The translations under genes were made by a program, and so were the position numbers. A DNA stretch of 61,219 bases, filler included, from Kipferlia bialata (lineage: Eukaryota), in assembly GCA_003568945.1 (NCBI GenBank). It is 7 parts of 5 records of this genome, joined end to end, with 100 filler letters (N's around TTAATTAATTAA, not from the genome) between each part and the next. Parts side by side here need not be neighbours in the genome. Positions count along the whole stretch, not along the records: positions 7,201 to 11,682 come from BDIP01000732.1; positions 11,783 to 26,943 come from BDIP01000733.1; positions 27,044 to 34,320 come from BDIP01000734.1; positions 34,421 to 41,206 come from BDIP01000734.1; positions 41,307 to 56,453 come from BDIP01000735.1; positions 56,554 to 61,219 come from BDIP01000741.1; 1 more part is not named here. One strand, written 5' to 3'. Positions 7,917-61,156 of this stretch are shown piece by piece (position 1 is the first letter of the stretch; each line of letters opens with the position of its first letter). Below the pieces are notes generated by a model. It saw only the letters and a program-made list of their open reading frames with translations. It was not told the origin of the DNA and made no database searches.

Positions 7917-10900
7917 CTATTCCAGTGCCTCCTATGCGTACAGCTGCTCCCCAACCGCAGCGTTCATGGCCTTGATGAGTCTCTTCTGGCCCTTGGCAGA
8001 TCCAGTGACCCAGGGCTGGGCACGGGACACGACCTGGCGGTAAGGGGTATGGACAAACAGTAGGACAATCACACTATTGATTATGTATAGTGTGTATGTA
8101 TGTGTATATGTACCTCCTTGACGGACAGGTATGCCTTCTTGAGCAGACCCTCGGCCAGCTCAAGGGGCTCACCTCCTGGGGGTGAGGCACATGTGGGTGT
8201 GTGATAGAACATACATAGTGACTGTGGACAAAACACAAACTCTATACGTACCCTTCTTGGACAGGCTGCTCAGAACCAGACAGACTAGTGCACACAGGGC
8301 GGGGAGGGCCTGGGGGTGAGACTAATGCACTATGTAGAATGCCAATAACACAATCCCATGGCCCTACCTCGCTCTCGACCTCCTCCTCATCGACAGATGC
8401 TATGGACAGGGCATTGATGTGGGTGCACACAGTGGAGAAGAGGGTGTTGTGGGTGGCCTTGCCAGGGACAGGCGTGGCACGCATCACAACACGGTGTCTA
8501 GAGGGGTTAGAGAACATTGTCAACCTTGGAATGTAACTATGGTATATATGTGTATATGCATCATACCTTGTGAGTGAGTCCTCTGCCTCCAGAGATAACT
8601 GCACCATGACCCCTGCCGCACACTCAGTGGCAGGGTCAGAGGCAGGGGAGGACACTATCTGGTGGGCACAGGAGCGGGTCAGGACACCGACAATGTCAGA
8701 CTTCTTCTGAGAGAGTTAGTCAAGTGATTCAGATCTAGTGCCTACAAGGGAGCAGTGAAGCGGATGCCTGTACCTTCCCCTCAGCCTTGAGCCATGCTGT
8801 GAAGGCGGGTCTGTTGGTGGAGGCCAGCTGGGCCAGGAAGGATAGAACAGCACGTCTAGGGGTGAGGAGAGCAGAGAGCGCATTGAAATACCATACAAAC
8901 TTGGTATATACATGTATGTGTGGTACAAGATGTACCTGATGTGGGGGTCGATCTTGACCACAATCACCTCCCCGTCTGCCAGTACCCCAGGCCTGAGACA
9001 CAAGGTGATGATGTCTGTGTCAGACAGGGTGTCGGGGGTGCCAACGGTGTCACTGGGGTGAGGGGACATACTGTACAAGTGAGAGATGTATATATACCAT
9101 ATATGTACCTGTCCGTGTCCCTCTCTATACATACACTGTATAACTGATAGGTTATATACAATACTGTATATACACATACACTCTCTGTACCTGTCCGTGT
9201 CCCTCTCTATGCTGAAGTCGGGGTGGCTGCTCAGAGTGCCACACACACACGACACATTCTCTACAATCTCCATGGCCTCCTCAACTGGGGGTGAGGGGTA
9301 TATGAGGGAGATAGGGATGATAAAGAATACAGATAGGGACGAATATAATAACCCATGGCCTCCTCAACTGGGGGTGAGGAAGAGAGAGCAGGAATTGAGA
9401 GGGTATAGGTATGGATACTGGTAGGGCACTAACCTGTCAGGGCGTCATCCTCTAAGATACCCCGTTGGAACAGTGTCCTGGGGGTGAGGGGCAACTGACT
9501 AGACCTCAAAAACAGGTTATCAATAATAGTCTCTCACACAGCTACTAGTATATATATTCCCACCTAATGTTGCTGATTGTGGCTAGCATGGACGTTGCAG
9601 TATATTTATATATACTCACTCCATATCTACACAATGCTGCAAGTAGTGTATACCTGATGTTGCTGATTGTGGCCAGAATGGACGTTGCAGTATATAGAAA
9701 ATATAGACTCACACCATATCTACACAATACTGCAAGTAGATCATACCTGATGTTGCTGATTGTGGCCAGCATGGATGGGACTGACTCCAATAGAGACTGG
9801 GGGGCTGAGGCAGGGTCTAGCAGCACAAGAGATGCGAGGAGGGCAGACGCAGACTGAGGTGAGATATATATACATGTGATAAACACAGACAGAGCAAAAG
9901 TAAGTGTCATACTGGATGCCATGCCATCGACACACTTCCCCATGTGGGTACCTGCGTGATATCGTCTATAAGCACTGTCACGCCCTGGTCCTGGGCCTCC
10001 CTCAGACGGTCCCTGGGGGTAGGTATCTATGTATATATACAGTATTACAAGGTATACGGACAGCACCCCGGTACCTCTTTGTCTCTGATGCAACAGATGC
10101 CACGTGGTGCTTGTAGGCCAGCATGTACTCAACCAGGGTCTGGGGGGTGAGCACATACTGGGATATACCACCCTAAACTATATATATATAGGGCCTGGGG
10201 GTGAGAAGACATCACAGGGCAGATTCATAGTGGAAACATCTACTCACACACACCTCCGGCATTCATCGATATATAGAGACACAGAGGGAGAATACTAGAA
10301 GATACACAGAGAGAGGCGGACCCCGCACCTCTGGCAGTCTGCAGTGTGTCAGGACATGCACAATGTCATCGGTCATGGCAGCCCTGGGGTCAGAACAGGG
10401 GTACACAAAGACGACAGAATGTACACATATCACCCAGCCGTGGTACATATACGTGAATTATATGTCCCACTGACCTAGCCTTGGCCTTCTCCTCCTCCAT
10501 GTCCTCCTCCAGCATGGAGTCTCCCTTGACCTGGGATGAGTATGTATATAGAGAGACATATCCACTTGGTATTGATGACACCAGAGGTATTCTCACCTCA
10601 ATGACAGCCTCCACCATGGATATCCTCTACACAAGATAGTAATGCGATAATATACGTAGATGTGTACTACATATATACAAACCTCAATGATAGCCTCCAC
10701 CATGGCTATGTTCTGCATCACCAAGTCGTGCTGCTTTGACTCCTTCTCGGCCTCTCTCTTGGCCTCGCCCTTCCGCCTCTCCCGCACCTCACGCTGCTTC
10801 CTGGGGTTAACACATATAACTACGCGATATATGCAAGAGACAAACATAATATGAATCTACGCGGTAAGGGGAAGATAGACACATACCTCCTCAGCTTTGA

Positions 10901-11682
10901 CAGCCTTGTGATGCTGTTGGCCACTGCATCAAGGACATGGGAGGAGACAGAGTCAGACGCCTCGGCAGACCTCTTGTCACCACTCTGAGGGTCAGGGAGA
11001 GTGAGTAAGGATGCACTAGGAGAGTGTGCCCTTGTACAAGTATATAACTACATATATAATTGCAATTACATATACATATATATATACCTTCTTCCCCCCC
11101 AATAGGATGAGGTCGTGTGCGAACTGTGTGTATGTGAGGGACTCCTCCTCAGAGGACTGGGCTGTCTCGGACAGCATCTCGGACAGGAGGGTGGCAGCGG
11201 CCAGGCCTGGGGGGAGAAGGGACGGAAGATAAAGGGAAGGGGTAGAGTATGAATTTAGTGTAGCGACTGGTACTATCCCTGCCCTGACCTATGTCGACGT
11301 TGGCATGGCTGATGAGGCCAATCACAGCCTCCCCACCCCCACAGGTCAGGAACTCGGCATAGAGGTCAGGCCTGGCAGTCAGACAAGACAGAGAAGTGGT
11401 GAGGGGGGGTAGGCGGAGTGTATCGCAAATACAAGTATCAGTACCAGTTCCATACCTGAGAGCGATCTGCCTCAGCACCTCCAGCACGTCCTGCAACTGG
11501 GTGTCTGTGTCCTGGTAGGCAAAGGACTTGGTCTTGCTCTTCCTGAGGATGAGGGTGACGAGGAGAGTGATACATTGAAGGAGAGGTCAACAGAGTCGGG
11601 TAGAGAGATGAGGTGGAGAGGGGGGTGGGTGGGGGGGGGGGGGGGGGGCTGCAGGTATCTGTTACCTGTTCTTTCTCCTGAT
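7917..11682 (-). CDS. CTNNBL1: Beta-catenin-like protein 1 (Prp19-complex spliceosomal ARM protein), N-terminus truncated
   Basis: Spliced translation DTQLQDVLEVLRQIALRPDLYAEFLTCGGGEAVIGLISHANVDIGLAAATLLSEM matches the remembered CTNNBL1 motif (EMHVVATMPDLYHLLVELNAVQSLLGLLGHDNTDVSIAVVDLLQEL). Later QNIAMVEAIIE and EEAMEIVENVSCVCGTL correspond to HNTLAIVENMAE and EEQEMMENLFDSLCSCL. Stop TAG at 7917-7919. Confidence 0.8.
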
Positions 11683-11782
11683 NNNNNNNNNNNNNNNNNN
11701 NNNNNNNNNNNNNNNNNNNNNNNNNNTTAATTAATTAANNNNNNNNNNNNNNNNNNNNNNNNNNNNNNNNNNNNNNNNNNNN
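11683..11782. other. Artificial contig linker
   Basis: N44-TTAATTAATTAA-N44. Confidence 0.95.
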
Positions 11783-59311: not shown

Positions 59312-59345
<34 letters not shown>

Positions 59346-61156
59346 AAGTACTATCTCATACCTTCTGGCCCTTGTTGTACAGGTTGTAGCTGTAGTATGC
59401 AAGGAGCATGGCAACACCTGGTTGTTAGTATATGCCCAATACCAACATATGTGTATAGGATACTGACACACAATATATGAATGTGTACATTTGGTATAGT
59501 ATGTTCTCTTTACATATTAGAACTATGTACATACCTGTGAGCAGCAGGTACTCTGGGAACACTGTGTTGAGCATGACACCAATAGTGACACCCACAATAC
59601 TGCCTAGGGGTTAGACCACACAGAAACACATGTACGCATATGTACACACATATACTTACTATATATATATGTGTATATATAGGGTATATATAGTGAATAT
59701 ATAATATATACTGTGTTGAGCATGACACCAATAGTGACACCCACAATGCTGCCTAGGGGTTAGTGAATCTATATATATATATACGTATGTATATCTATAG
59801 GGTGTATGTATCATAATATACATATACTGTGTTGAGCATGACACCGATGGTGACACCAACAATGCTGCCTGAGGATAAGAGTGAAACACACAAGAGTCTA
59901 TCTGTATTTACACTTAAACATCAACATACCTGACTCCATGAGCATGACCAGGTCGCATTCTCTCTCTCTCTCTCGCTCTCTATATCTATCTATATATACA
60001 TATATCTATATATATGTGTGTGTGTATGTATGTACTACTATCTCTATACCTGGCTCAATGAGCATGACCAGGTCGCATCCTCTCTCTTTCTCTCTTTCTC
60101 TCTCTCTCTCTCTATACATATATATATATATATATATAAATATAAATGTAAATGTATATACTACTGTCTATATACCTGGCTCCATGAGCATGACCAGGTC
60201 CCATGCAATCAGGGGGTCAGACCGGGTGCCTATGGTTAAAGCAAAAGACATTCCACATGTATACATAATGCAGTACTCATATAGAATAAACAATGTACTC
60301 ATACAATATGTCCCATGTAATCAGGGGGTCAGACCGGGTGCCCATGGTAAGGATATATCAATATATACTAATATAGTACTTATATACTATATATTAATAT
60401 AAATATTTATATATGTCCCACGCAATCAGGGGGTCAGATCTAGTGCCTGGCGTAAGGAGGAATGATCCATAATATACATACTCCCTTTATATATAACAAG
60501 TATTATTAGTATACCACTTACCAGGCCTTCTCAGTCTCATGTTCTGGATGAACACATGTGTATATGTAGTATATGATACCTATGTTATTCATATATATAC
60601 CCACTATATATATAACAAGTGTATTTTCAGTATGCCACTAACCTGGTATTCTCAGCCTCATGTTCTGGATGAACACAGCCACACGTATAAGTAAACAAAT
60701 CCCCCCCCCCCCCATTCTCTCCCTGTATATAGTGTACAAGTGTAACAAATGCATATACTCAGTATATATACCTGGTCTTCTAAGTCTCATGTTCTGGATG
60801 AACACAGCCACAGACATACTACCCGTATCACAATGTATATTACATAATGAATATTATACATATACACAATACGCATCACTTACCAGGCCTTCTGAGTCTC
60901 ATGTTCTGGATGAACACTGCCACAGAGCCACCAAAGATGATAGTCTAGGGTAAGAGAGAGAGAGACATGGGGGGGGGGGGAACGGCGACATAATAATAAT
61001 GAACAATACACCCTGATGTATGGCAGGGCAGGGGAGGGGGGAGAGAATGATACGCGTGAAACACACCTTGCTGTATGGCACTGACTGGTGCACATCCAGT
61101 CCTGTGAACATGAAGATGGACAGGTACATGGACCCACCGCCAATGCCGCCTGACAT
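56764..61156 (-). CDS. TauE/SafE (TSUP) family membrane transporter, truncated at both ends
   Basis: SGGIGGGSMYLSIFMFTGLDVHQSVPYSK|TIIFGGSVAVFIQNMRLRRP|GTRSDPLIAWDLVMLMEP|GSIVGVTIGVMLNTVFPEYLLLT|GVAMLLAYYSYNLYNKGQK matches the eukaryotic TauE pattern (GGIGGG...PLSK..IFG...PLIDYDL.LL.EP...G..IGV.LN..FP). Confidence 0.88.

What the first reader, a model, noticed from the sequence alone, without database searches (positions are those of the whole stretch)
9100..60925. Window-wide polarised 'splice-junction echoes' in introns
Seen: at more than 20 sites an intron holds 1-5 diverged 15-45 nt copies of the neighbouring exon end with its splice site, spaced about 60-130 nt by TA/GA/CA microsatellite. 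The polarity held in the cases I traced. Copies carrying the donor lie downstream of the real exon (e.g. 9563-9770, 16804-17115, 23730-23890, 24526-24830, 49829-50120, 50730-51095). Copies carrying the acceptor lie upstream (e.g. 14605-14870, 22270-22672, 54595-54840, 59562-59875). Copies almost never keep both ends. Inference: repeated tandem duplication of exon+intron units, filtered so that only half-copies survive. The spliceosome must then choose the first donor and last acceptor across many decoys, which implies exon definition or recursive splicing. It also offers a route to intron and exon gain. I know no description of this.
Basis: partly seen in the sequence, partly recalled or inferred. 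Interest (0 to 1): 0.78.

Follow-up and report, generated by a model that had tools for sequence, protein, structure and literature searches.

The report
Half-exon echoes carrying diverged-allele signatures
In the free-living flagellate Kipferlia bialata, a third of the introns examined hold copies of the neighbouring exon end with an intact splice signal that the one messenger RNA checked skips, and these copies differ mostly at silent codon positions, so they are likely scraps of a diverged second chromosome copy left behind by imperfect DNA repair.

Summary
Confirmed, with an unexpected twist. The window is stitched Kipferlia bialata contigs. 55 of 165 modelled introns hold 100 exon-end copies: donor copies downstream, acceptor copies upstream, 2 weak exceptions; chance 12 of 10,860. 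They are 35% of intron DNA, 45 of the 55 in four genes. Polarity is the geometry of any duplication across one junction, so it proves no filter. One RNA contig uses the exon-proximal site in 6 of 6 echo-bearing introns, once a weak AAG over a consensus decoy. No ratchet signature.

New here: exon-derived parts are about 93% identical yet differ at 4-fold sites four times more than at 0-fold sites (neutral copies allow two). Intron flanks are nearly unrelated, but GT, AG and branch consensus survive in variant form. The copies therefore diverged under selection. Best reading (0.55): fragments captured from a diverged homologue by one-sided repair in this reportedly diploid, NHEJ-less cell. No second allele was seen. 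The scan noted junction repeats in other genomes; human F7 intron 7 is the published precedent.

The parts
9563..9775 (-). Two donor echoes of exon 9853-9747 in the CTNNBL1-like gene
   Evidence: Pfam CTNNBL weak hit on another exon of this gene
14431..14870 (-). Acceptor echoes at 14449, 14760 and 14858; RNA uses 14364 and 14630
15213..15233 (-). Donor echo with the same score as the real donor at 15294; skipped in RNA
15388..15716 (-). Intron with donor echo 15619 and acceptor echo 15459 (CTTAC-CC-CAG, 15.3 bits); RNA uses the weak AAG acceptor at 15387 (3.8 bits)
15859..15898 (-). Donor echo of exon 16019-15966; skipped in RNA
16794..17095 (-). Three donor echoes of exon 17164-17096; two form a 100% identical 55-nt recent repeat
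22303..22844 (-). One donor echo and three acceptor echoes (branch motifs CTTAC, CTCAT, CTCAT against real CTAAT; all score above the modelled real site)
23731..23871 (-). Two donor echoes of exon 23943-23872
24278..24814 (-). Donor echoes of exon 24874-24815 and acceptor echo 24379
25169..25994 (-). Longest intron (826 nt): five donor echoes (period about 91) and two acceptor echoes
30896..32471 (+). Plus-strand echoes in KIPB_003706 (acceptor 30896, donor 31771, acceptor 32388), same polarity in gene orientation
35796..36412 (+). SOUL-family gene intron 1: two donor echoes with 30 of 30 identical coding bases but unalike intron starts, then two acceptor echoes
   Evidence: Pfam SOUL weak hit on the last exon
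49829..50083 (-). Donor echoes of exon 50140-50084 of the Rab-GAP TBC gene KIPB_005445
50741..51064 (-). Donor echoes of exon 51109-51065
52985..53555 (-). Four donor echoes (period about 109) and one acceptor echo
53921..54919 (-). Five acceptor echoes across three consecutive introns of KIPB_005445
56819..60883 (-). Densest gene (model G16): 22 echo copies in 8 of 10 introns

Best explanation
The echoes are real 70-145 nt tandem units, each a 13-45 nt exon end plus most of an intron, and they are likely fragments of a diverged homologous chromosome captured during imperfect break repair. Shown: position, polarity, skipping in one RNA contig, silent-site bias, kept splice consensus, nearly unrelated flanks. 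Inferred steps: (1) alleles drift until only exons can pair, both staying functional; (2) a break in an AT-rich intron is repaired from the homologue on one side, synthesis runs through the other allele's intron and a short way into the far exon; (3) under about 45 nt of overlap is too little to re-anneal, so the strand is end-joined to the broken intron end, leaving old junction plus new junction in tandem; (4) unequal exchange between existing copies adds or removes units; (5) the spliceosome takes the site nearest the exon, probably by cross-exon pairing or by reading the GC-rich exon to AU-rich intron switch, so the scar is tolerated and then decays.
For: 4-fold sites differ 79 of 474, 0-fold sites 72 of 1745, ratio 4.04; a neutral copy of the same exon gives at most 2, and 0 of 150 forward simulations reached 4.04 in each of the three settings with equal or faster echo mutation; nearest copy per family only, ratio 3.79, p = 0.0007. 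pN/pS 0.25, bootstrap 0.18-0.36; 0.33 (0.23-0.47) at kappa 6; shifted frames give 1.38 and 3.65. Changes found in only some echoes of a family: 28 silent, 29 replacement, pN/pS 0.32, p = 2e-5 against neutrality. Identity falls from 0.87-0.96 in the exon part to 0.45-0.69 at intron +3 to +10; only 4 of 100 flanks are at least 85% like the real flank. Yet GT is kept in 53 of 55, AG in 38 of 45; branch 5-mer identity by position 0.71, 0.95, 0.42, 0.89, 0.68, and 24 of 38 fit YTNAY while differing from the real one; random decay to 0.64-0.78 identity gives median acceptor scores of -3.6 to 2.2 against 10.0 observed at 0.51 identity. Exon part above 45 nt in 1 of 88 against 56% expected for random units. 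K-mer peaks suggest diploidy (PMC5874029, passage); metamonads lack Ku/NHEJ and rely on homologous recombination (PMC8516963, passages).
Against: No second allele or relative was obtained: no variant letters in the DNA contigs over 11783-16380, no relatives in metagenome contigs, one member per 90% cluster for both proteins. The model needs introns to diverge several times faster than 4-fold sites. Only 4 of 47 echo pairs have private silent changes in both copies, which also fits serial snapshots of one drifting exon. If echoes mutate at one half or one third of the silent rate, the ratio is reached in 7% and 37% of simulations. Some arrays are plainly recent same-chromosome repeats (55-nt unit at 100%, 91-nt unit at 90%). 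Only 2 of 7 indels inside exon-derived parts keep the frame. In the subset with RNA or annotation support (19 of 67 families) pN/pS is 0.34, closer to the bound. Breakpoint microhomology could not be tested.
Confidence: 0.55

Rival explanations
1. Echoes are old same-chromosome duplications kept by selection where they sit, as working helper sites (intermediate splice sites or extra U1/U2 landing pads beside an exon end); the silent bias comes from drift of the real exon.
For: Splice consensus kept despite flank turnover; 33 of 55 echo donors score at least as high as, and 20 of 45 echo acceptors higher than, the real site; real acceptors with echoes are weaker than those without (11.7 against 13.9 bits, p = 0.014); slow-echo simulations can reach the ratio.
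Against: No AG|GT enrichment; use of an echo site would break the frame or add a stop in 88 of 100 cases; the RNA contig shows no echo letters or joints; changes shared by all echoes of a family are few (6 silent) against 28 silent in subsets; most introns in twelve genes splice without echoes.
Confidence: 0.13
2. Old tandem duplications whose exon-derived part is repeatedly overwritten by gene conversion from the real exon while the flank drifts.
For: Sharp identity step at the junction; 28 of 100 copies have no exon-part difference; no correlation of exon-part and flank identity (rho 0.10); flanks are faintly homologous.
Against: Predicts pN/pS of at least 0.5 (0.1-1.4% of bootstraps) and cannot keep a branch motif that differs from the real one yet fits consensus (24 of 38). 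If the converting template is the other homologue this merges with the best explanation.
Confidence: 0.15
3. Ordinary neutral junction-spanning minisatellites as in human F7 intron 7, merely frequent because introns and exons are short.
For: About 56% of random 105-nt duplications would span exactly one junction; a few arrays are near-identical repeats; decoys are silent in RNA.
Against: Flanks near-identical in only 4 of 100 copies; codon bias; purely intronic repeats are almost absent, 115 of 137 repeat pairs are exon-echo or echo-echo and most of the rest also span junctions, although fast intron decay could hide them.
Confidence: 0.1
4. Assembly chimera of alleles laid in tandem, or programmed deletion that swaps echo ends in.
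For: Short-read assembly of a reportedly diploid genome (PMC5874029); allele-like divergence is what a chimera would show.
Against: A single unbranched DNA contig spans four echo sites at full depth with 0 differences, no DNA joints skip echo units, and the RNA contig has 0 other letters; 0.93 of sampled words of 17400-26900 are in the DNA run. Tested over about 1 kb of echo DNA only.
Confidence: 0.04

Closest known systems
Human F7 intron 7 37-bp VNTR (Borensztajn et al. 2006, PMC1557585; abstract and Discussion read)
   Same: First unit spans the exon-intron border; downstream pseudo-donors are intact but only the most upstream donor is used.
   Different: One locus with pseudo-sites identical in sequence. 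Here a third of introns, both donors and acceptors, flanks nearly unrelated, and a coding-selection signature in the copies.
Intron gain by tandem genomic duplication (reviewed in PMC3443670, passages read; Gao and Lynch 2009 and Hellsten 2011 seen only as references there)
   Same: Short intragenic duplications that include splice signals.
   Different: There a duplicated exonic AGGT makes a new intron; here the existing junction is kept and the intron only lengthens (about 105 nt per copy).
Internal tandem repeats altering human gene structure (PMC2812944, passages read)
   Same: Repeats at exon-intron boundaries lengthen introns.
   Different: About 30-bp minisatellites in recent paralogues; the passages read report no selection signature.
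One-sided invasion and microhomology-mediated template switching (PMC4888836, passages and reference list seen; mechanism otherwise recalled)
   Same: Repair with homology on one side and end-joining or microhomology on the other yields local duplications.
   Different: I saw no report of it as a source of exon-end scars templated by a diverged allele; here it is inferred, not shown.
Exon definition, and position-dependent splice-site choice at AU/GC transitions in plants (Lou 1993, McCullough 1993; titles seen in the references of PMC2327258; content recalled)
   Same: The exon-proximal site wins over stronger sites inside the intron; exons 59% GC, introns 42%.
   Different: Occurs here with short introns (echo-free median 102 nt), a branch point fixed 2-4 nt before YAG, and a reduced spliceosome (87 of 174 proteins, PMC6679479).

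Membership tests
F7-type junction-spanning minisatellite | Terminal unit spans an exon-intron junction and repeats the splice site into the intron | tested here: met
   67 junctions, 100 copies
F7-type junction-spanning minisatellite | Units near-identical over their whole length | tested here: not met
   4 of 100 real-echo flanks and 3 of 47 echo-echo flanks at least 85% alike
F7-type junction-spanning minisatellite | Pseudo-sites silent in normal mRNA | tested here: met
   6 of 6 echo-bearing introns in one RNA contig; rare isoforms not visible
F7-type junction-spanning minisatellite | Copy number varies between alleles; pseudo-sites activate when the real site is lost | not testable with these tools
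   one sample, no experiments
Recursive splicing (ratchet points) | Intronic AG|GT that regenerates a donor | tested here: not met
   7 of 45 echo acceptors; 8 of 35 against 26 of 130, p = 0.81
Recursive splicing (ratchet points) | Intermediates or lariats at the intronic site | not testable with these tools
   only assembled contigs available
Intron gain by tandem duplication | Duplicated sites are used and create a new intron or exon | tested here: not met
   5 of 165 adjacent exon pairs similar, none in head-plus-tail register; echo sites unused
Exon definition | Site nearest the exon chosen regardless of strength | tested here: met
   AAG acceptor 3.8 bits used, 15.3-bit decoy 72 nt upstream skipped
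Exon definition | Cross-exon dependence of acceptor on the downstream donor | not testable with these tools
   needs mutagenesis; a composition-switch model predicts the same choice
Inter-homologue one-sided repair scar | Inserted part diverged under selection before capture | tested here: met
Inter-homologue one-sided repair scar | Donor allele found elsewhere; microhomology at the join | tested here: inconclusive
   no allele or relative recovered

The most novel reading that the evidence does not exclude
The half-exon echoes are not scars but a new class of selected intronic element: exon-end mimics with working splice signals that a reduced spliceosome uses to find or step across exon boundaries, kept in step with the real exon.
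Probability: 0.13. Interest if true: 0.9.

Novelty: new variant of a known kind. Interest (0 to 1): 0.72.

Why it matters
If the best reading holds, one assembly carries a record of former alleles and of recombination between homologues in a lineage where sex has not been seen and NHEJ is absent, and it shows a route of intron growth (35% of intron DNA here) tied to repair. Extrapolated from this window to the 124,912 annotated introns (PMC5874029), there would be tens of thousands of natural competitions between intact splice sites. That makes testable whether a short-intron protist with a reduced spliceosome picks sites by exon definition, which intron-length rules would not predict. This second point stands whichever origin is right.

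Tried and rejected
No whole genome was held, so no genome-wide count. A two-strand gene finder overfitted and was dropped; strand-restricted models were curated by hand. Uncertain and left out or flagged: exon-like pieces 18242-18212 and about 26263-26232, the weak acceptor at 20714, the donor at 19234, a few boundaries in G1 and the BEACH gene, the region 11783-13650, and a partial gene at 55823. No database protein was found for the largest gene (none; 4 hits, none identical to the query), so its 5' three quarters and gene G16 rest on my model; shifted-frame controls support the frames. The run index listed no holder on record as RNA; X2 is a guessed RNA run whose contig shows GT-AG joints. 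Metagenome scans found no relative. Echoes as micro-exons: absent from the RNA contig and from both public proteins. cDNA templating: echoes continue into GT or follow AG, not into the next exon. Transition bias: kappa about 1.8 at 4-fold sites, result holds to kappa 6. TATA density of echo-free introns does not differ between echo-rich and echo-poor genes (p = 0.24), AT content does (0.62 against 0.53; groups chosen after the fact). Literature: 10 searches listed no paper on such copies in Kipferlia or on a selection signature in junction repeats; subscription papers and supplements were not seen, and Gao and Lynch 2009 and Lou 1993 were not held.
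Full report
Source and gene structure. The window has 878 N in seven gaps, six of them N44-TTAATTAATTAA-N44 linkers, giving 8 pieces. Two exons match Kipferlia bialata proteins at 100% (KIPB_005445, a Rab-GAP TBC protein; KIPB_003706). My spliced models, made before fetching them, equal the public proteins: all 529 residues of the first, and 470 residues of the second by alignment with the rest matching. 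The public models are AUGUSTUS with transcript hints (PMC5874029, Methods section read), so this is agreement, not independent proof. I curated 16 models with 181 exons and 165 GT-AG introns and no internal stops. The branch motif YTNAY sits 2-4 nt before the YAG.

The observation. Using exon letters only, with microsatellites masked, donor-end copies lie downstream at 32 of 165 junctions (55 copies) and acceptor-end copies upstream at 35 of 165 (45 copies). The reverse placement occurs at 1 of 149 and 1 of 149; chance is 12 of 10,860. 55 of 165 introns are affected; in all 12 with both kinds the donor copies come first. Each copy adds 105 nt (r = 0.89). Echo units make up 10,553 of 30,366 intron bases. 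The count is conservative: weaker copies such as 23663 fell below threshold. Four genes hold 45 of the 55 introns.

Real DNA, and which site is used. Over 11783-16380, DNA contig 8 of run X1 spans 14419-15483 with no difference at depth 448, like its neighbour at 463. RNA-like contig 11 of run X2 (depth 52) joins nine introns, one of them read from a loose end and one from contig pieces; six hold eight echo copies, and every joint is at the exon-proximal site with no echo letters. At 15387 it uses an AAG acceptor (3.8 bits) and skips a 15.3-bit copy 72 nt upstream. This is one contig in one gene; contigs drop rare forms, and 88 of 100 echo-site products would be frameshifted or stopped and could be degraded.

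Polarity is geometry. A tandem unit that spans only a donor leaves the intact exon first and the copies behind it; one that spans only an acceptor leaves the intact exon last. About 56% of random 105-nt duplications on the echo-stripped genes would be of these two kinds and 12% would hold a whole exon. No clear whole internal exon copy was found, so selection against those is plausible, but the polarity itself is not evidence of it. Ratchet-type recursive splicing fails its sequence test, and no intron or exon gain was found.

The unexpected result. A neutral tandem copy should decay evenly. These do not. Identity is 0.87-0.96 across the last 20 exon bases, 0.98-1.00 at GT, and 0.45-0.69 at +3 to +10, where unrelated junctions give 0.25-0.67. 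Over 30 nt of flank, gapped identity is 0.67 and 0.63 against 0.60 for unrelated introns: faintly homologous, nearly saturated. In the exon-derived part, mismatches follow the real reading frame: 30 of 529, 19 of 521 and 73 of 526 at codon positions 1, 2, 3; a fixed 15-nt window gives pN/pS 0.24 (96 copies, 4 dropped for indels). If the echo were neutral and only the real exon constrained, silent sites could differ at most twice as often. The observed 4-fold to 0-fold ratio is 4.04, 3.79 with one copy per family, and neutral simulations through the same pipeline never reached it. Changes confined to some echoes of a family are also silent-biased, and replacement changes are more conservative than random (BLOSUM -0.18 against -0.63, p = 0.008). 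Splice signals vary within consensus: 15 of 16 changes at donor +3 stay purine, the branch T and A are kept while the middle base changes, and echo acceptors score like working ones. So both the coding part and the splice signals of the echoes were under selection for most of their divergence.

How it most likely works. The simplest way for two versions of one exon end and intron to diverge while both are selected is to be alleles. K. bialata appears diploid by k-mer peaks, and metamonads lack Ku-dependent joining, with alternative end joining full, partial or absent by lineage (its state in Kipferlia was not seen). I infer that once allelic introns cannot pair, a break in an intron is repaired from the homologue on one side and end-joined on the other, leaving the end of the other allele's exon and its intron in tandem. 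The 45-nt cap on exon sequence (1 of 88 longer, 56% expected) fits a homology threshold above which re-annealing or later collapse removes the copy; selection on splicing could also explain it. Arrays with several different flanks need repeated captures, and near-identical arrays show later same-chromosome expansion. None of these repair steps is shown. Against it: no allele was recovered, the laid region shows no variants, introns must evolve several times faster than silent sites, and private silent changes in both copies occur in only 4 of 47 pairs. Conservation in place at a third of the silent rate would also reproduce the ratio.

Relation to known work. Junction-spanning repeats with first-donor use are known from human F7, a lead taken from earlier notes of this scan on urchin, annelid and shark genes, which I treat as unchecked. 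What differs here is frequency, both polarities in one genome, and the selection signature; ten literature searches did not list a description of these. Names for the cathepsin, MATE and G16 transporter-like genes are recalled from motifs and had no Pfam hit on single exons.

Verdict. Interest 0.72.

Noticed in passing
window 37619-37820: A 13-nt motif occurs in direct and inverted copies in both introns around the 56-nt SOUL exon 37684-37739 (one pair 100% complementary, 72 nt apart); it could loop out the exon. The intron before it has a weak acceptor.
   Followed up: partly
window 18212-18242 (-): A 31-nt segment with a consensus acceptor and donor that does not fit the reading frame of the surrounding gene: possible poison or relic exon.
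   Followed up: no
window 20654-20788 (-): The frame closes only with a 49-nt intron whose acceptor has no clear branch motif; boundary uncertain.
   Followed up: partly
window 11783-12690: Multi-copy DNA: depth up to 2100 against 463, with loose ends and joints; probably a repeated element at the contig start.
   Followed up: no
window 40161-41206 (-): Internal repeat of a Thr/Ser-rich protein with an intron at the same position in both copies; 18, 6 and 4 differences at codon positions 3, 1, 2 over 35 codons and unalike introns, the same pattern as the echoes but in two working copies.
   Followed up: partly
window 14121-26943, 35766-38488, 49615-55056, 56764-61149: Echo-rich genes have more AT-rich introns even where no echo is present (0.62 against 0.53), suggesting a regional property.
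   Followed up: partly
window 55823-56453 (+): Partial gene at a contig end with two further donor echoes and an acceptor pair; left out of the counts.
   Followed up: no
window, contig ends: Many pieces end in long G or C runs, consistent with short-read breaks.
   Followed up: no
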